The position numbers and the translations under genes are program-made. Shown piece by piece: positions 15,553 through 21,449 of a stretch of 64,000 nt of DNA. The notes under the pieces are model-generated. The model made no database searches and was not told the DNA's origin. It saw only the letters and a program-made list of their open reading frames with translations. Source of the stretch: Ostreococcus lucimarinus (taxonomy: Eukaryota). Within the stretch, counting starts at the first letter, position 1. Each line of letters begins with the position of its first letter. The DNA lies in assembly GCA_000092065.1 (NCBI GenBank), contig CP000594.1; one strand, given 5' to 3'.

Positions 15553-17238
15553 CTATTCGTCGACGAGCGGAAGCGCGTCTCTCGAACGGATGGCTGGAAG
15601 CATAGCCGGAATCAAGTTCAGGTAATCTTCCAACAGTCCTGTCGTGGTGATGAACTGCCACGTGAAGAAGGCCATGACGAGTGATACGAAAAGCGTGGCG
15701 ACGAAAGCGCGCTCGCGGAAACCCGAACGCCGGATCATAGCGATCGTCGTTGCCATGACGGGATGAATCGTCATTCTGAAGTAGAACATCGGATAGAAAA
15801 CGACGAGCGCGACGGAGTACACGGCCAAGTGTCTCAAGTACTGACGACGCTGTGACCCAGACATTTGCTGCCACGTAAGACCTCGCCACGAGCCCGCTAA
15901 AGCTCGTCGCGGCGGTCTTGGAACGAAAGGTTCATGCTTGCACTTGACGCAGTGACACTTACCACCCACGATGCAACGAGGCAAGATGTGGGGCGAAAAC
16001 TTTTCATGCAGCTTTTCGATGCCATCGTCGTCCGCTTGGTAAATCAAAATGCGTCCCTTTGTGCTACTACTCACGACCTCGAGTAATATTTGCAACGCAC
16101 GTCTCATGAGCCACCACACATTGATGCAATGCACCTCGCACGCCAGCTCCGGGTAGTTGGCGTCGAGCGTCACGAGAGTCGTGGCGACGAGGGAAATCGG
16201 AAGCGAAGTCAAATCGATACCCGAGCAATCGACGAGCGCCACCAAACGACCTCGCATGACACCATTTGACTTCTTCAACCGCATCCACTCCTGCTCGGCG
16301 TGCGTCATCACCGCGGCAACGACTTCGTCCAAGCCTTCCATGCCCACTGCGTCCATGGCGGCTCGAAGTCTCAGCACGAGTTGATAACCGCCGCTCCAGC
16401 TTTGCTTCGGACCGTGAATGTATACCACGTTCTCAAACTGCTTCAGCTTGGCGTCGGTCAAGAACTCATACCTTCTGCGCCATTGCAACGATCGTTCCAC
16501 GGCTTGCGCCGCGGCGGACGTGTGCTTCCACTGTAACAAGAAAGCCGCGAGTTGGGTGTCGGTGAACTTGGCTCTCGCGGTCGGCGAGAGTTTATTTTTC
16601 AAAGCGTGAATCTCGTATTCGCGGGGAATTAACAGTGCGTTCCCGTATCCAGTATCTGTCGCCACCACACCAGTGTACACGGCGGCTGGCAGTCGATGTA
16701 ATCTATTCATTCCGCCCTTGACCCAACCGACGGGGCGCAGCAGCGCGTGCCTTTGCCTATGGCTTTCGGCGTACTCTCTCGATTGATTGATGCTCTCGTC
16801 GTCGCTCTCTTCATCGCTACCTATGTCTTCGTCACTGGCGTACTCTCCGTTCGTCCCCGTTCCCGATCCACGTCGACGCCTTCGTCTGTTCCTAGCCCCC
16901 GTGAATCGCGCGATGGTGCTCAGCTGTCCCTCCGCGTGCCGCATCGCGTACAGCACGTCCCTCGGCAACGTCTCCTCCAAAACCTCCCACGCCTCGTTCA
17001 CCGCCGCCCTATACGAACTCACCTCATTCTTCACCTTATTCTTCGCCAACAACTTCCCCAACCGCTTCGCGTGTCGCTGCAGCTTTATCCGCACCGCCGG
17101 AATCTTGCACACGCGCGCCGCCATTTTCGCAAACTTCCGCACGAAACATTTATACGGCGCCGACGCCGCGACGAGCAGCGCCACGCGTCCCGTGATCGTC
17201 GGCAGCGGCTTACTCGACGCCAGCCCCTTCGTCATCGT
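15553..17238 (-). CDS. CRAL-TRIO (Sec14-like) lipid-binding domain protein with C-terminal transmembrane segment(s)
   Basis: Central region KLKQFENVVYIHGPKQ...GYQLVLRLRAAM...RLVALVDCSGIDLTSLPISLVATTLVTLDANYPELACEVHCINVWWLMRRALQILLEVVSS...GRILIY resembles the CRAL-TRIO fold. Two hydrophobic helices near the C-terminus. The start is uncertain: the track ORF runs to 17619, but the N-terminal 130 aa are Ala/Arg-rich. Confidence 0.45.
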   Translation of the reverse strand, partial: TMTKGLASSKPLPTITGRVALLVAASAPYKCFVRKFAKMAARVCKIPAVRIKLQRHAKRLGKLLAKNKVKNEVSSYRAAVNEAWEVLEETLPRDVLYAMRHAEGQLSTIARFTGARNRRRRRRGSGTGTNGEYASDEDIGSDEESDDESINQSREYAESHRQRHALLRPVGWVKGGMNRLHRLPAAVYTGVVATDTGYGNALLIPREYEIHALKNKLSPTARAKFTDTQLAAFLLQWKHTSAAAQAVERSLQWRRRYEFLTDAKLKQFENVVYIHGPKQSWSGGYQLVLRLRAAMDAVGMEGLDEVVAAVMTHAEQEWMRLKKSNGVMRGRLVALVDCSGIDLTSLPISLVATTLVTLDANYPELACEVHCINVWWLMRRALQILLEVVSSSTKGRILIYQADDDGIEKLHEKFSPHILPRCIVGGKCHCVKCKHEPFVPRPPRRALAGSWRGLTWQQMSGSQRRQYLRHLAVYSVALVVFYPMFYFRMTIHPVMATTIAMIRRSGFRERAFVATLFVSLVMAFFTWQFITTTGLLEDYLNLIPAMLPAIRSRDALPLVDE

Positions 17239-17766
17239 CGCCAACGCCTTGACGACGAGCGTTTCGATCCTTCGTCTTCGCGTCCCGACCGCGTTCGCCT
17301 TTAAAAATCCCAACGTTCGTCGTCCGCGGTGGTTGACGCGATACATCTCTCCCGCGCACACGCACGCCGCGACCAGCGGGCCGCGTCGTCGTCGGGCTTT
17401 GCGCAGCCAGACGACTCGCGCGGCGTAGCTCGCGAACTGCGCCGTGGGCGTCGTCGCGCGGTACAATTCGCGCGCGACCGCCGCCGTGGACGCCGTCGCG
17501 AGCGCGACGGCACCGCGACCGAGCGGGCGCGTCGTCGCGCGCGCGACGACGCGAACGGCGACCTCAGCGGTAGCACCATCGTCCGCGCGCGTCGACGACG
17601 CGCCGGACGACGGCGTCATGACGCGCGTCGACGACTGACGCGGCGCGCGCCGAACGCGCCGCGCGGCGACGCCGCGAGCGACGAACGACGCGCCGCGAGA
17701 TCACGCGAAACGACGCCGCGATAACGCTACGACGAATACATCGAATAAATAGACGCGCCTACGAAT

Positions 17767-18321
17767 CTACGAATCGCGATCGCCGCTCGAATCGCGATCG
17801 CCCGCCTCGAGCGCGCCCGTCAACATCGCGCGCCGAAGCGTCAAGTTATCCTCGCGCGTCCGGTCGATCGCCTCAGCCTTCATCCAATCGTAATCGAATC
17901 CCTCGGCATCGCACGCCAGCACTTTTCTCGTCTCGATGATTCGCACGGCGACGAGTCGGTAATCCAGCTCTTCGTGCGCCATGAGTTCCGCCAACCACGC
18001 GCTCGCGTCGGCGCGCAGCGGCTTGGCGTGCAGGTAATCGATCAGTTTCGGCGCCATCGGCGAGCGGTGTCGCGTCCCTGACATCTGGTCCAGGACGACG
18101 CGGACGGCGGACATGGTGAGGAGGTCGGCGAGCGCCTTGGCGGCCTTTCGCGGCGGCGTGAGACCGTCGAAGTCGACGGTGGCGAAGAAGTCCGCGCCGA
18201 GGGCGTCGTCGTCGTCGGCGGCGGCGCGCGCGCGAGGCGAGGCGCGCGCGCGCGCGCGAGCGCGCGCGACGCGACCGGACGTGGACGCAGCGGCGGCGCT
18301 CGCGGCGGCGCTCGCGCGCAT
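17767..18321 (-). CDS. RBCX: RbcX-like Rubisco assembly chaperone with N-terminal Ala/Arg-rich transit peptide
   Basis: AVRVVLDQMSGTRHRSPMAPKLIDYLHAKPL...DASAWLAELMAHEELDYRLVAVRIIETRKVLA parallels cyanobacterial/plant RbcX (ALRTVLAQLGETNPPLALWLHNF...EKYIEELFLEKPDLALRIMTVREHIA). ATG at 18321. Confidence 0.6.
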   Translation of the reverse strand: MRASAAASAAAASTSGRVARARARARASPRARAAADDDDALGADFFATVDFDGLTPPRKAAKALADLLTMSAVRVVLDQMSGTRHRSPMAPKLIDYLHAKPLRADASAWLAELMAHEELDYRLVAVRIIETRKVLACDAEGFDYDWMKAEAIDRTREDNLTLRRAMLTGALEAGDRDSSGDRDS

Positions 18322-18426: not shown

Positions 18427-20721
18427 TCAACAGACGAGCGGGCTGGCCGGAGCGGCGGGACGGAGCAAAAGGAGCGTCGCGCACAGAGCGACGAGACCGA
18501 GCTCGGTGGACGTCAACAGGGACGGGATGTGGGCGGCGCCGGCGTCGACGACGGCGGAGACGACGTTCGCGAGCGAGGCGCCGGACGCGAGGAGAGCGCG
18601 GCTGTCGGCGCCGACGATGGCGTAGAAGACGACCCAGGGCGCCATACCGAATGCGGTTCCGGCGACGATGGCGCGGATGGGGACTTGAGTGAGACCCAGG
18701 AGGTAGTTGGTGACCGTGAACGGGGCGTGCGGGAGGAGACGCATCAACGAAACTTTGGAGGCTTGCACGAGGGCGTCGCCGTCGCCGCTCACGGCGCGGT
18801 TCACCTTTTTCAACTGCGCCGCGATCGATCGACGCGCGGGCGCACCGATGCCCGTTTGCTGCGCCAAGTCATCGCTGATTTGCCTATACCCTCGAGCGCG
18901 GCTCGCGCTCGCCGAGATGGCGGCGGCGCACACGGCGGCGCATAAACCGAGCGCCGCGCCGTACGCGGGACCAAAAAATAAGCCAGCCATGATGAACAAA
19001 GGCTGCGTAGGAACGAATGGAATTATCGCCGCGAGCGTGGTGATCGCGGTGAGGCACAATGGCGCGAGCACGGGACCAGCTTTACTGATCGCGGACTCGG
19101 CGACGTTGAGCCAGCTCGTCGCTCCGAACGCGGCCTTGACTTTGGTCGCCGTGGCGATCGGACCGGCTTGTCTCGCGTAAACCAGCGCGCTCACGGCGGC
19201 GGCGAAGATGGCGACTTGCAAAATGTGTTGACCACTGATCAAAAAGTCAAACACAGCCACCGCGCGTCGGCGAATACCGATGGCTTTGATCGCCTTGCGC
19301 AAGTTTCGCAACTTGAAAAATCGCTCCAACCCTTTCGAGTACTGGTTCTCTCGGAGATTTCTATTGGACGACATCCATCCCCACTTTTCGACGTCTGCGC
19401 GACTTGCCGCACCCATGCGTTGGCGTTCGCTGTCGTTCTCGAGCAACATCTTGACGTGCTCGGCGGCTTTGTCGTAGTCGTACTCGGGGTAGAGCAAGCC
19501 GACGTCGCCCGGATTGGTGAGGATATCGAGTAAGCCACCGGCGGCGACGGCAACGACGGGTACGCCCGAAGCCATGGACTCCATGACGACAAAACCGAGC
19601 GTCTCACTCGGGCTCGGCATGACGAACACGTCCAAAGACGCGTACGCTGCGGACAAATCGTCTCCCGTGATCATCCCCGTGAAAACTGTATTCGTTCCGG
19701 CAAAGTGCTCCTCGAGCCTTTTACGTTCGGGTCCGTCTCCGATGATGGCCAAATTCACGTTCGACGGTAATTTTGCGAGAATATCTTTGAGATCTCCCAA
19801 GCGCTTTTCCGCGCCGAGGCGTCCGACGCACCCGATGATCGGACCGTCGCGACCGCCGCTCAGACGCTTGCGCATCTCCTCGCTCTTAAAGCTCGGATTG
19901 AACGCCACCGTGTCCACGCCCTTGTCCCAGACTTGCAAATTTTTACACCCTTCTCCTCTCAACTCGTTCTCCAGAATGCTCGAAGTCACCAACGTCGTCG
20001 ACGCGTAGCCGTTCCAAAACCGAATCAAGTCCCACATCGGCTTGACCAACCCCGCCCACGTGTACCTCGGAATGTAGTGCGGAATGTGCGTGTGATACGA
20101 CTCCACGAGCGGTATATCCATCGCCTTACAGTACGTCATCGCCCCAAAAATCATCCCTCCCGGCACCGCGCAGTGCACCAAGTCCGGTTTATTCTCCTTA
20201 AACTCCCGCCACACCCGTCCGTCGAGCCCGAACGAGCACAGCAGCGTGTCCGTCCCGTAAAACGGCAGCACGAACCCTCTCAACCCGATCACCTTCGCCC
20301 CGTGATACTCCTTCGGCGGATCGCGATCGGGCGTGATCACCACCACGTCGTCTCCCATCTCTCGCAGGTTCTCGATCAATCGCAGGAATCGATTCTTCAT
20401 CCCGCTCACGTGCGAAAACGGGCTCGGCTCCACGAAGATGGCCACGCGTCGTTTCGGTCGCGCGTCCGTCGTCGCCGTCGCCGTCGCGGTCGTTCGCGTC
20501 GTCGCGCGTCGCCTCGCGACGACCACCGCGGCGTTCCGCGTCGCCGTCGAGCGCGCGTCCGCGCGTCCCGCGTCGCCGTCGCGTCGTTTCGGTCGGAATA
20601 TACCACCGCCCGTCGTCGTCGTCGTCGTCGCGCGCGTCGTCGTCGTCGTCGTCGCGCGCCGCGGTCGCGCCGACGCTCGAGGCGCGCGCGTCATCGCGCG
20701 CGTCGCGAACCTCGCGTCCAT
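18427..20721 (-). CDS. SQD2: Sulfoquinovosyldiacylglycerol synthase SQD2 (GT4) fused in one ORF to a C-terminal DedA/TVP38/TMEM64-type membrane domain. N-terminal chloroplast transit peptide
   Basis: The N-terminal about 430 aa align closely with plant SQD2: RVAIFVEPSPFSHVSGMKNRF, YHGAKVIGLRGF, SYHTHIPHYIPRYTWAGLVKPMWDLIRF, IGDGPERKRLEEHF, VFTGMITGDDLSAAYASLDVFVMPS.SETLGFVVMESMASGVPVVA, and KWGWMSSNRNLRENQYS at the SQD2 C-terminus. The same frame continues without a stop into about 300 aa of multi-TM sequence carrying the DedA/SNARE-associated signature (PFVPTQPLFIMAGLFFGPAYGAALGLCAA...RARGYRQI; GLTQVPIRAIVAGTAFGMAPWVVFYAIVG). Start at the ATG at 20721; the track start at 20760 is GTG. Confidence 0.75.
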   Translation of the reverse strand: MDARFATRAMTRAPRASARPRRATTTTTTRATTTTTTGGGIFRPKRRDGDAGRADARSTATRNAAVVVARRRATTRTTATATATTDARPKRRVAIFVEPSPFSHVSGMKNRFLRLIENLREMGDDVVVITPDRDPPKEYHGAKVIGLRGFVLPFYGTDTLLCSFGLDGRVWREFKENKPDLVHCAVPGGMIFGAMTYCKAMDIPLVESYHTHIPHYIPRYTWAGLVKPMWDLIRFWNGYASTTLVTSSILENELRGEGCKNLQVWDKGVDTVAFNPSFKSEEMRKRLSGGRDGPIIGCVGRLGAEKRLGDLKDILAKLPSNVNLAIIGDGPERKRLEEHFAGTNTVFTGMITGDDLSAAYASLDVFVMPSPSETLGFVVMESMASGVPVVAVAAGGLLDILTNPGDVGLLYPEYDYDKAAEHVKMLLENDSERQRMGAASRADVEKWGWMSSNRNLRENQYSKGLERFFKLRNLRKAIKAIGIRRRAVAVFDFLISGQHILQVAIFAAAVSALVYARQAGPIATATKVKAAFGATSWLNVAESAISKAGPVLAPLCLTAITTLAAIIPFVPTQPLFIMAGLFFGPAYGAALGLCAAVCAAAISASASRARGYRQISDDLAQQTGIGAPARRSIAAQLKKVNRAVSGDGDALVQASKVSLMRLLPHAPFTVTNYLLGLTQVPIRAIVAGTAFGMAPWVVFYAIVGADSRALLASGASLANVVSAVVDAGAAHIPSLLTSTELGLVALCATLLLLRPAAPASPLVC

Positions 20722-21449
20722 CGTCGCGGGCGTCGGCGCGAGCCCCCGCGCGTCCCGCACTGCCGCGCGCGATGGACGCCCCGACGTCGGCGCTCGCGAT
20801 CGACCGCGCGGCGGTCGACCGCATCGCGCGCGCCGCGACGCTGTCGACGCTCGCGGGCGCGCTCGCGGGCGCGGCGCTGGCGCTGCGACGACGCCGACCG
20901 CAGGCGGTGGCGCCGACGCACGCCGTCGCGGGCGCGGCGAACGTCGGCGCGTGCGGCGCGGCGCACGCGACGACGCTCGAGGCGCTGGACAGACGGCCGG
21001 ACGCGCGAGGCGCGACGACGCACGCCGTCGCGGGCGCGTGCGTCGGGACGGGCGCGGCGTGGGTGAGGTGGGGACGACGCGCGGCGACGGCGGGCGCGGC
21101 GTGCGGCGCGGCGGCGGCGGGCGGCGCGAGGGCGTGCGCGACGGCGCTCGAGGGCGCGGGAGAGCGCGGGTACGAGTTCCCGAGGTGGTTTCCGGTGCAA
21201 ATCGTGCGAGAGGAGGGGCGCGAGGACGAGCTGCTGGCGCTTATGGGGCGGGCGCAGCGAGGCGAGCTGTCGGCGGAGGACGAGGCGAGGACGCGGGACG
21301 CGTACGCGCGGTGGAAGATGCGTCGAGCGGGGAGAGGGTAGAGGCGCGCGCGGCGAAGCGGTGAAGTGGAAAAGTTAGCGTAGAATACAATCGCGATCGG
21401 CGAACGTCGGTCGAGACGCGACGCGACGCGACGCGCGCGCGCGCGAGGC

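What the first reader, a model, noticed from the sequence alone, without database searches (positions are those of the whole stretch)
18427..20721. Single ORF fusing sulfolipid synthase SQD2 to a DedA/TVP38-type membrane domain
The about 430-aa SQD2 glycosyltransferase (match through the canonical C-terminal ...NEQYS motif) continues without a stop into about 300 aa of multi-TM sequence. That segment carries the DedA/SNARE-associated (TVP38/TMEM41/TMEM64) glycine-rich re-entrant signature. Plant and Chlamydomonas SQD2 end right after NEQYS, so this domain architecture is not one I recognise as described. DedA-superfamily proteins have been proposed as lipid scramblases/flippases, so a synthase-plus-flippase fusion for an anionic thylakoid glycolipid is functionally coherent. 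Caveat: this sequence has several indel-type frame errors elsewhere (see other findings). A lost stop between two adjacent genes must therefore be excluded.
Basis: partly seen in the sequence, partly recalled or inferred. Interest (0 to 1): 0.7.

Follow-up and report, generated by a model that had tools for sequence, protein, structure and literature searches.

The report
Sulfolipid synthase fused to DedA-type membrane protein
In this picoalgal genome the enzyme that makes the chloroplast sulfolipid SQDG is encoded as one protein with a DedA/Tvp38-type membrane module, a family whose animal members scramble lipids between membrane leaflets, and this conserved fusion gives a testable clue to how plastid lipids cross membranes.

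Summary
An uninterrupted minus-strand ORF (18427-20721, 764 aa from the first ATG) encodes five parts in order:
- an 86-aa low-complexity presequence;
- a complete SQD2-type GT4 glycosyltransferase;
- a basic linker helix;
- one transmembrane helix;
- a VTT/DedA domain (PF09335, 47.7 bits against a cut-off of 33.9).

It is not a lost stop codon. Ostreococcus tauri has the same architecture in conserved synteny (81% identity), and so do about 30 further protein clusters down to 42% identity. dN/dS against O. tauri is 0.10 for the GT domain, 0.21 for the linker and 0.18 for the VTT core.

Core chlorophytes and land plants have an unfused SQD2. Chlorophytes encode the nearest VTT relatives as separate genes. 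69 bacterial GT4 relatives found by a GT-motif-seeded scan lack the module.

The predicted topology puts the catalytic domain and the VTT termini on the same membrane face, as in TMEM41B.

The likeliest function is synthesis of SQDG at the stromal leaflet, coupled to lipid scrambling or placement by the VTT module. That function is inferred, not shown.

The protein is already in public databases under generic names, but I found no paper describing the architecture. I rate it a new variant of known kinds, of moderate to high interest as a Rosetta-stone link between SQD2 and chloroplast Tvp38 proteins.

The parts
18427..20721 (-). Complete coding sequence of the SQD2-VTT fusion protein (764 aa plus stop), with no intron or frame break needed
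   Evidence: colinear with the O. tauri orthologue
20464..20721 (-). N-terminal presequence (aa 1-86). It is rich in R, A, T and S, and is inferred to be a plastid transit peptide
   Evidence: pLDDT below 50; 28% identity and dN/dS 1.02 against O. tauri; 19 K+R against 5 D+E. Targeting was not tested with a predictor
19909..20406 (-). GT4 N-terminal lobe (Pfam Glyco_transf_4, aa 106-271)
   Evidence: model pLDDT mostly 85-95
19399..19881 (-). GT4 C-terminal lobe (Pfam Glycos_transf_1, aa 281-441)
   Evidence: invariant GRLGAEK motif
19579..19605 (-). EX7E catalytic signature of GT4 enzymes (ETLGFVVME, aa 373-381)
   Evidence: E373 and E381 are invariant in the 17- and 29-sequence alignments
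19336..19350 (-). ENQYS motif (aa 458-462), equivalent to plant NEQYS. It marks the end of the conserved GT core, and the frame continues
19231..19377 (-). Long basic linker helix (aa 449-497; 12 K+R). Part of it aligns with the C-terminal tail of unfused SQD2
   Evidence: single helix H449-496 in the model; charge count; alignment A1
19168..19230 (-). First transmembrane helix (aa 498-518), preceding the DedA domain
   Evidence: hydropathy; H498-518
18607..19014 (-). VTT/DedA domain as matched by Pfam PF09335 (aa 570-705). The structural domain starts at about aa 548
   Evidence: pLDDT 80-94; dN/dS 0.18
19000..19020 (-). Turn of re-entrant loop 1 (PFVPTQP, aa 568-574). P568, P571 and P574 are invariant, followed by G580, G584 and G588
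   Evidence: invariant columns; helix break at 567-572
18718..18732 (-). Turn of re-entrant loop 2 (PHAPF, aa 664-668). It has two invariant prolines two residues apart, preceded by invariant R661
   Evidence: matches the loop 2 description in Okawa et al.
18463..18510 (-). Last transmembrane helix (aa 738-753), which returns the C-terminus to the side of the GT domain

Best explanation
This is a genuine, conserved nuclear gene of an Ostreococcus-type green picoalga. It encodes a bifunctional plastid membrane protein.

Shown:
- One ORF joins a complete SQD2-type GT4 glycosyltransferase to a Tvp38/TMEM64/YdjX-type VTT (DedA-superfamily) membrane module.
- The junction and the VTT signature residues are conserved and under purifying selection across lineages only 42-55% identical.

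Inferred:
- The presequence targets the protein to the chloroplast.
- The GT domain sits on the stromal face and transfers sulfoquinovose from UDP-sulfoquinovose to diacylglycerol.
- The basic linker helix lies on the membrane surface.
- The membrane module has one TM helix, re-entrant loop 1, TMH1, a basic extramembrane helix, re-entrant loop 2, TMH2 and a final TM helix. It anchors the enzyme and acts as a lipid scramblase. It equilibrates newly made anionic SQDG (and/or its diacylglycerol substrate) between the two leaflets where the lipid is made. This relieves leaflet imbalance and makes the lipid available for transfer to thylakoids.

I put the gene and its architecture being real at about 0.95. 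I put the scramblase coupling at about 0.45.
For: Architecture:
- Pfam GT4 plus PF09335 in one ORF.

Conservation:
- O. tauri protein of 756 aa with 81% identity and the same domains.
- About 30 further cluster representatives at 42-55% identity carry both domains.
- Invariant P568, P571, P574, G580, G584, G588, R661, P664, P667, F668, Y673, T689, G692, P695, Y700 and G704 across 29 fused proteins.
- Seven of these (the three loop-1 prolines, G580, G584, G588 and R661) stay invariant when standalone relatives are added, as do P664, P667, Y673, G692 and G704.

Selection:
- dN/dS is 0.098 for the GT domain, 0.21 for the linker and 0.18 for the VTT core, against 1.02 for the presequence.

Synteny:
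- The order ATG101, a 189-aa gene, SQD2-VTT, RbcX, CRAL_TRIO is shared by the window and O. tauri. The ATG101...SQD2-VTT...RbcX part is also kept in a relative with 52% identity.

SQD2 identity:
- The best named homologues are plant and algal SQD2 (42-55% identity over the GT domain).
- The EX7E motif is invariant.
- O. tauri contains SQDG (PMC7407893).

Topology:
- The AF2 model is confident in both modules, with helix breaks exactly at the two proline turns.
- K+R counts are 12 in the linker and 8 in the extramembrane helix, against 3 and 1 in the opposite loops.
- This reproduces the experimentally mapped TMEM41B topology, with both termini on the cytoplasm-equivalent side (Okawa et al.). 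The GT domain is therefore attached on the correct face.

Scramblase-like features:
- This is the pattern that separates the COG0398/eukaryotic scramblase-like branch from the UndP-flippase branch (PMC10127716).
- TMEM41B and VMP1 are scramblases (PMC8077175).

Plant parallel:
- Arabidopsis has a chloroplast Tvp38-family protein, TVPFP. Its loss alters thylakoid-envelope contacts.
- SQD2 was enriched in the 'lightThy' intermediate-density membrane fraction of the same study (PMC13381928).

Precedent for synthase plus translocase in one protein:
- MprF (PMC11980842).
Against: - No biochemical, transcript or proteomic evidence was accessible, and no RNA-derived sequence spanning the junction could be identified.
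- No DedA or VTT structure is solved, so the fold cannot be checked against experiment.
- Scramblase activity has been shown only for distant family members. It has not been shown for any plastid or COG0398 protein.
- The aromatic residue of the family's F/YxxxR/K motif is missing in the Ostreococcus sequences, though it is present in other fused lineages.
- Substrate specificity of the GT domain (UDP-sulfoquinovose or UDP-glucuronate) cannot be read from the sequence.
- Plastid targeting is inferred from composition only.
- Plants and core chlorophytes manage with separate proteins, so physical coupling is not essential for SQDG synthesis.
Confidence: 0.5

Rival explanations
1. Anchor or targeting only. 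The VTT module has no transport role here. It serves as a multi-pass membrane anchor that places SQD2 in a particular plastid membrane subdomain, such as an envelope-thylakoid contact site, replacing the peripheral association used by unfused SQD2.
For: - Unfused SQD2 already ends in a basic or hydrophobic tail, part of which aligns with the linker. Membrane attachment is therefore the ancestral role of this region.
- Arabidopsis TVPFP localises to discrete puncta and affects membrane contact geometry.
- Pseudoscourfieldia SQD2 has a hydrophobic C-terminal tail of about 90 aa without PF09335, which shows that simple tails can evolve here.
Against: - A pure anchor would not need the family's re-entrant-loop residues. 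Those residues are invariant across all fused lineages, and most of them are shared with standalone relatives.
- The VTT core has dN/dS 0.18, much lower than the C-terminal tail at 0.62.
- One TM helix (aa 498-518) would be enough for anchoring.
Confidence: 0.25
2. Different chemistry. The GT domain is not (only) the SQDG synthase but makes another diacylglycerol glycolipid such as glucuronosyl-DAG. Alternatively, the VTT module moves a substrate unrelated to the GT product, acting as a general plastid glycerolipid scramblase or an ion-coupled transporter.
For: - From my own knowledge, not tested here: plant SQD2 is known to also make glucuronosyldiacylglycerol.
- NCBIfam gives only sub-threshold hits to other lipid GT4 families.
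- DedA-superfamily members handle diverse lipids, for example UndP and PE.
- Okawa et al. note a resemblance to ion-coupled transporters.
Against: - The GT domain groups with bona fide SQD2 sequences and has 42-55% identity to them.
- JGI's automatic annotation calls it a sulfoquinovosyltransferase.
- O. tauri makes SQDG, and no second O. tauri SQD2-like protein appeared among the 120 best hits.
- The loop tips lack the acidic and dibasic residues linked to PMF-driven UndP transport.
Confidence: 0.15
3. Artefact. Two adjacent genes (SQD2 and a Tvp38-like gene) were merged by a sequencing or assembly error that removed a stop codon or shifted the frame.
For:
- Two metagenome gene calls that are 99-100% identical (P0005, P0010) lack the PF09335 annotation.
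Against: - P0005 and P0010 read through the junction and diverge only inside the VTT module, at aa 624 and aa 554. They are frameshifted calls, and neither has a stop at the junction.
- The open junction occurs in O. tauri (NCBI genome), in a 2-Mb contig of a relative with 52% identity, and in dozens of independent assemblies.
- The linker has dN/dS 0.21 in this frame.
- The linker leaves no room for a UTR or promoter.
Confidence: 0.02

Closest known systems
SQD2, UDP-sulfoquinovose:diacylglycerol sulfoquinovosyltransferase (CAZy GT4) of plants and green algae
   Same: - Full GT-B catalytic domain with both Pfam lobes, the EX7E and GRLGxEK motifs, and 42-55% identity.
- A basic C-terminal helix follows the (N)EQYS motif.
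   Different: - Plant and core-chlorophyte proteins are about 440-530 aa and end about 30-70 aa after the motif.
- This protein continues for about 300 aa into a multi-pass membrane module.
Tvp38/TMEM64/YdjX (COG0398) branch of the DedA superfamily, including chloroplast Tvp38 homologues (At1g22850; Arabidopsis TVPFP), cyanobacterial Slr0305, and the chlorophyte 'VTT domain-containing proteins'
   Same: - PF09335 match.
- Two proline-turn re-entrant loops, each followed by a TM helix.
- Flanking TM helices and a basic extramembrane helix.
- Motifs PLxPTQPL...GLxFG and RLxPxxPF..NY.LG shared with standalone green-algal proteins (E about 1e-35 to 1e-38 against a fusion-only profile).
- JGI labels fragments of the fused genes as YdjX (TVP38/TMEM64 family).
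   Different: - The known members are standalone proteins of about 200-460 aa.
- The domain fusions reported for bacterial DedA proteins are with PAP2, rhodanese and pyridine-nucleotide oxidoreductase domains. None is with a glycosyltransferase.
- I could not test a direct relationship to Arabidopsis TVPFP because I did not have its sequence.
TMEM41B and VMP1, ER phospholipid scramblases with a VTT domain
   Same: - Same domain family.
- Same predicted topology: N- and C-termini on the cytoplasm-equivalent side, four TM helices and two facing re-entrant loops.
- They act where glycerolipids are made on one leaflet.
   Different: - Distant in sequence.
- ER rather than plastid.
- Not fused to a synthase.
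- Scramblase activity has been shown for them and not for this protein.
MprF, the bacterial lysyl-phosphatidylglycerol synthase fused to a lipid translocase or scramblase domain
   Same: The logic is the same: one polypeptide modifies or produces a charged lipid on the inner leaflet and carries a membrane domain that moves it across the bilayer (PMC11980842).
   Different: - There is no homology in either half.
- One search found no Pfam families other than GT4 and VTT.
- This is an analogy of design, not family membership.

Membership tests
SQD2 (GT4 sulfoquinovosyltransferase) | GT-B enzyme with Glyco_transf_4 and Glycos_transf_1 lobes | tested here: met
   Pfam E 4e-23 and 6e-31; alternating strand-helix (Rossmann-like) secondary structure in the AF2 model with pLDDT mostly 85-95
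SQD2 (GT4 sulfoquinovosyltransferase) | EX7E catalytic motif of retaining GT4 enzymes | tested here: met
   ETLGFVVME at aa 373-381; E373 and E381 invariant
SQD2 (GT4 sulfoquinovosyltransferase) | Closest named relatives are characterised or annotated SQD2, and the GT domain groups with them | tested here: met
   42-55% identity to plant and algal SQD2 over the whole GT domain. It sits within the SQD2 set in an NJ tree. NCBIfam bacterial GT4 equivalogs all score far below their cut-offs
SQD2 (GT4 sulfoquinovosyltransferase) | Transfers sulfoquinovose from UDP-SQ to diacylglycerol | not testable with these tools
   Needs an enzyme assay or a knockout. Indirect support only: O. tauri contains SQDG (PMC7407893)
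SQD2 (GT4 sulfoquinovosyltransferase) | Plastid targeting | tested here: inconclusive
   The 86-aa N-terminus is basic, hydroxylated, low-complexity and fast-evolving, which is consistent with a transit peptide. No predictor or localisation data were available
DedA superfamily / VTT domain (PF09335) | Significant match to the PF09335 profile | tested here: met
   47.7-48.1 bits against a gathering cut-off of 33.9; the same in fused homologues
DedA superfamily / VTT domain (PF09335) | Re-entrant loop 1, TMH1, extramembrane region, re-entrant loop 2, TMH2. Loop 2 turns at two prolines one or two residues apart (Okawa et al.) | tested here: met
   Predicted only. There are helix breaks at 567-572 (PFVPTQ) and 663-667 (PHAP), invariant prolines, and a basic helix at 627-644 between them. 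No experimental structure exists for comparison
DedA superfamily / VTT domain (PF09335) | Keller & Schneider motifs F/YxxxR/K and GxxxM/VxxxxF/Y | tested here: inconclusive
   R608 is nearly invariant and is preceded by F or Y at -4 in most fused lineages, but by Ala in Ostreococcus. The glycine motif could not be placed with exact spacing
COG0398 (Tvp38/TMEM64/YdjX) scramblase-like branch, as opposed to COG0586 UndP flippases | [quoted passage not shown] | tested here: met
   No D or E in aa 548-606. Only R661 is invariant at loop 2. The criterion comes from PMC10127716. The window module gave no hit to the NCBIfam UptA equivalog
COG0398 (Tvp38/TMEM64/YdjX) scramblase-like branch, as opposed to COG0586 UndP flippases | Lipid scramblase activity | not testable with these tools
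   Needs a reconstitution assay
MprF-type bifunctional lipid synthase/translocase | Homology to MprF domains | tested here: not met
   Only GT4 and VTT families were found by Pfam at E<=1. The resemblance is functional logic only

The most novel reading that the evidence does not exclude
The fusion is a Rosetta stone. Under this reading, plastid Tvp38/COG0398 proteins (Arabidopsis TVPFP, the chlorophyte VTT proteins, cyanobacterial Slr0305-like proteins) would be the long-sought scramblases for thylakoid glycolipids, and would work physically with SQD2 at envelope-thylakoid biogenesis sites. The GT-domain tree does not unite the three fused groups, and the VTT tree is unresolved. So the link may even have been made more than once in green algae, which would be strong evolutionary evidence for functional coupling.
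Probability: 0.3. Interest if true: 0.8.

Novelty: new variant of a known kind. Interest (0 to 1): 0.6.

Why it matters
- How plastid lipids made on one leaflet of the inner envelope reach the other leaflet and the thylakoids is an open problem. The function of chloroplast and cyanobacterial Tvp38/DedA proteins is also unknown.
- A conserved natural fusion of one of these proteins to a specific thylakoid-lipid synthase names a candidate substrate and partner. It also provides a compact system for testing the idea: one gene in a small, low-redundancy picoalgal genome.
- It predicts an SQD2-TVPFP functional link in plants.
- The organisms concerned (Ostreococcus and the related lineages seen in marine metagenomes, with clusters of up to 598 member sequences) are abundant picophytoplankton.
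- From my own knowledge, not tested here: sulfolipid substitutes for phospholipid when phosphate is scarce.

Tried and rejected
1. Single-sequence search with the C-terminal 300 aa found only fragmentary gene calls of the same gene. A profile was needed.
3. NCBIfam has no specific family for the module.
4. Transcript evidence. The 2,787-bp JGI contig carrying the identical protein is genomic: it runs into the RbcX gene and has no poly(A). The header of the Tara member P0504 looks to me like a metagenome gene call rather than a unigene, so I do not count it as RNA evidence.
5. Organism names for the diverged fused lineages. Three cluster look-ups returned only metagenome labels. Assigning them to Micromonas, Bathycoccus or other genera is therefore only an inference from composition, abundance and synteny.
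6. Gene adjacency as the origin of the fusion. In Astrephomene the standalone VTT gene has no GT4 neighbour.
7. Single or multiple origin. NJ trees support the core fused clade on the GT domain (200/200). They do not unite all fused proteins, and the 129-column VTT tree is unresolved (core clade 102/200). A first attempt with Biopython timed out.
8. Bacterial fusion. 69 GT4 relatives were found in the GTDB species genomes, and none extends past query aa 485. The scan was seeded only on GT motifs and returned no cyanobacterial SqdX, so it is not exhaustive.
9. The Euglena plastid proteome paper that mentions both 'sulfoquinovosyltransferase' and 'SNARE' is unrelated.
Full report
**1. What is there**

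The window holds one uninterrupted minus-strand reading frame at 18427..20760. The first ATG is at 20721, which gives a 764-aa product. Pfam finds the two lobes of a family-4 glycosyltransferase: Glyco_transf_4 at aa 106-271 and Glycos_transf_1 at aa 281-441. About 130 residues further on it finds a VTT domain (PF09335, formerly SNARE_assoc) at aa 570-705, scoring 47.7 bits against a gathering cut-off of 33.9. The last 300 residues alone give the same hit.

- The gene is on the minus strand.
- The motif is ENQYS (aa 458-462, nt 19336-19350), not NEQYS at about 19450-19650.
- Unfused SQD2 proteins do not end right at this motif. Plant, Selaginella and Chlamydomonas proteins in alignment A1 carry about 30-70 further residues, and Pseudoscourfieldia over 100. 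Part of this tail aligns with the basic linker helix of the fusion.

**2. It is not a lost stop codon**

- A search of 5.8 billion proteins returned an identical JGI protein and the O. tauri orthologue (NCBI; 756 aa; 81% identity). It also returned about 30 further cluster representatives at 42-55% identity. All carry both GT4 and PF09335.
- More fused fragments appeared in the exhaustive profile search.
- Near-identical fused ORFs of the window's own cluster were assembled independently on 62 and 11 contigs.
- Two 99-100% identical gene calls without a PF09335 annotation (P0005, P0010) read through the junction. They diverge only at aa 624 and aa 554, inside the membrane module, so they are frameshifted metagenome calls.
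- Synteny is conserved. The order ATG101, a 189-aa gene, SQD2-VTT, RbcX, CRAL_TRIO is found in the window and in O. tauri. The ATG101...SQD2-VTT...RbcX part is also kept on a 2-Mb contig of a relative with 52% identity.
- Codon-level comparison with O. tauri gives these dN/dS values:

| Region | dN/dS |
|---|---|
| Presequence (aa 1-86) | 1.02 |
| GT domain | 0.098 |
| Linker | 0.21 |
| VTT core | 0.18 |
| C-terminal tail | 0.62 |

The membrane module is thus translated in this frame and is under constraint. I could not obtain RNA-level evidence. The contigs I could inspect are genomic.

**3. Anatomy**

Residues 1-86 are basic, rich in Thr, Ser and Ala, poorly conserved and unstructured in the model. 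I infer a plastid transit peptide.

Residues 87-448 form a confidently modelled GT-B domain (pLDDT mostly 85-95). The EX7E motif (E373...E381) and the GRLGAEK motif are invariant.

A single long helix (aa 449-496) carries 12 Lys and Arg residues and is followed by a transmembrane helix at aa 498-518.

The DedA domain proper follows:
- a half-helix (aa 548-566);
- the turn PFVPTQP with three invariant prolines;
- a glycine-rich half-helix that merges into TMH1 (aa 573-606);
- a basic extramembrane region with a helix at aa 627-644;
- a half-helix (aa 650-662);
- the turn PHAPF with two invariant prolines two residues apart, preceded by invariant R661;
- a half-helix (aa 668-676);
- TMH2 (aa 682-713);
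- a loop and a final TM helix (aa 738-753).

This matches the arrangement described for the DedA domain and mapped experimentally for TMEM41B: four TM helices, two facing re-entrant loops, and both termini on the cytoplasmic side (Okawa et al.). The charge distribution follows the positive-inside rule for this topology. There are 12 and 8 K+R on the side of the GT domain, against 3 and 1 on the opposite side. The catalytic domain is therefore attached on the topologically correct (stromal) face.

**4. Who has it, and what the separate parts look like elsewhere**

Land-plant, streptophyte-alga and core-chlorophyte SQD2 proteins lack the module. So does the prasinophyte Pseudoscourfieldia marina protein.

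A profile built only from fused modules was searched against 1.84 billion representative proteins. It found 946 proteins at E<=1e-10. After the fused genes, the best hits are standalone proteins of 200-460 aa. Those with names are green algal:
- Neomeris and Astrephomene;
- from the mixed profile: Pleodorina, Volvox, Gonium, Chlamydomonas incerta, Trebouxia, Tetradesmus, Haematococcus, Monoraphidium and Sanguina.

They share the two signature motifs, PLxPTQPL...GLLFG and LRLTPxVPFSxSNYxLGL. In Astrephomene the standalone gene has no GT4 neighbour.

In a bootstrapped NJ tree of the GT domain, the window, O. tauri and the lineages at about 50% identity form one clade (200/200). Two other fused groups (P0026; P0069/73/89/91) fall elsewhere. 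The unfused Pseudoscourfieldia protein is sister to the core clade. The VTT tree is unresolved. One ancient fusion with later fission and several independent fusions both remain possible.

None of 69 bacterial GT4 relatives extends into a VTT module. That scan was seeded only on GT motifs.

The diverged fused lineages come from marine metagenomes and carry no organism names. That they are other Mamiellophyceae is my inference from synteny, composition and abundance.

**5. How it most likely works**

Shown:
- a conserved single polypeptide joining an SQD2-type enzyme to a Tvp38/YdjX-type DedA module;
- family-defining loop residues under constraint;
- a predicted topology that puts the enzyme on the same face as the module's termini.

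From established knowledge and papers:
- O. tauri contains SQDG.
- VTT proteins TMEM41B and VMP1 are phospholipid scramblases acting where lipids are made on one leaflet.
- The COG0398 branch lacks the acidic and dibasic loop-tip residues of the UndP-flippase branch and resembles the eukaryotic scramblases. This module shows the same pattern: no D or E in aa 548-606, and only R661 invariant at loop 2.
- Arabidopsis has a chloroplast Tvp38-family protein whose loss changes thylakoid-envelope contacts. SQD2 was enriched in the intermediate-density 'lightThy' membrane fraction of the same study.
- MprF is a precedent for a lipid-modifying enzyme fused to a translocase.

Inference: the GT domain makes SQDG on the stromal leaflet. 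The attached module then equilibrates SQDG (or its DAG substrate) across the bilayer and/or positions the enzyme at a biogenesis subdomain.

I give about 0.95 to the architecture being real and functional. I give about 0.45 to the scramblase coupling and about 0.25 to a pure anchoring or targeting role. The conservation of the loop residues argues against a mere anchor. I give about 0.15 to different chemistry on either side and about 0.02 to an artefact.

**6. Comparison with what is known, and novelty**

The GT half passes the tests I could apply for SQD2 membership. The membrane half passes those for PF09335 and the COG0398-like branch. Activities cannot be tested here.

The domain combination is already present in public protein sets. 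It is annotated as 'sulfoquinovosyltransferase' by JGI, and NCBI/UniRef name the O. tauri protein 'hypothetical protein' and 'Glycosyl transferase, family...' (truncated in the output). The sequence itself is therefore not new.

I found no paper that mentions the architecture. I checked:
- the green-algal glycosyltransferase survey;
- the chloroplast Tvp38 paper;
- the DedA evolution and subfamily papers, which list only PAP2, rhodanese and oxidoreductase fusions;
- recent Ostreococcus lipid and transcriptome papers.

The library does not hold most subscription-journal papers, so a prior mention cannot be excluded.

I classify it as a new variant of known kinds.

**7. Verdict**

Interest is moderate to high (0.6). 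This is not a new kind of molecule, but it is a conserved natural fusion that ties an uncharacterised plastid membrane-protein family to a defined lipid pathway. It makes an open question, how thylakoid lipids are moved, directly testable.

Noticed in passing
window 15553-17619 (-): Two genes downstream lies a 688-aa protein with a CRAL/TRIO (Sec14-like lipid-transfer) domain at aa 450-548 and a hydrophobic C-terminus. It is syntenic with O. tauri. A chloroplast Sec14-like protein (CPSFL1) is listed among the chloroplast proteins in the paper read. The proximity may be coincidental.
   Followed up: partly
window 17767-18321 (-): An RbcX-like gene starts only about 105 bp after the stop of the fusion gene. 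One public gene model (P0237, metaclust) merges the end of the VTT module with RbcX, which is an annotation artefact of this tight spacing.
   Followed up: partly
window 20500-21250: GC content is about 80% around the 5' end of the gene and the intergenic region. This produces many long spurious ORFs in all six frames, which can mislead ORF-based annotation here.
   Followed up: no
P0152 in the cluster of P0014: A 120-aa 'glycosyltransferase, partial [Pseudomonas aeruginosa]' (WP_430962135.1) clusters at 90% identity or more with an algal SQD2-VTT protein. This probably reflects eukaryotic contamination in a bacterial assembly.
   Followed up: no
P0416/P0076 and P0415/P0067: In Chlamydomonas incerta the standalone VTT gene (HXX76_007081) and an SQD2-like gene (HXX76_007099) lie on contigs of the same length (2,161,561 bp) with locus tags 18 apart. 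In Tetradesmus obliquus both lie on a contig of 7,755,718 bp but 172 tags apart. This is loose linkage at best.
   Followed up: no
P0057, Pseudoscourfieldia marina SQD2: This unfused SQD2, which is sister to the fused clade in the GT tree, has a hydrophobic C-terminal extension of about 90 aa with no PF09335 match. It could be a degenerate remnant of the module or an independent anchor.
   Followed up: partly
L002-L004, L006 (P0073, P0091 group): The fused genes of this diverged, 65-69% GC lineage are called without the first 55-130 residues or so of the GT domain. This suggests an intron or a miscalled start. The organism is unknown.
   Followed up: no
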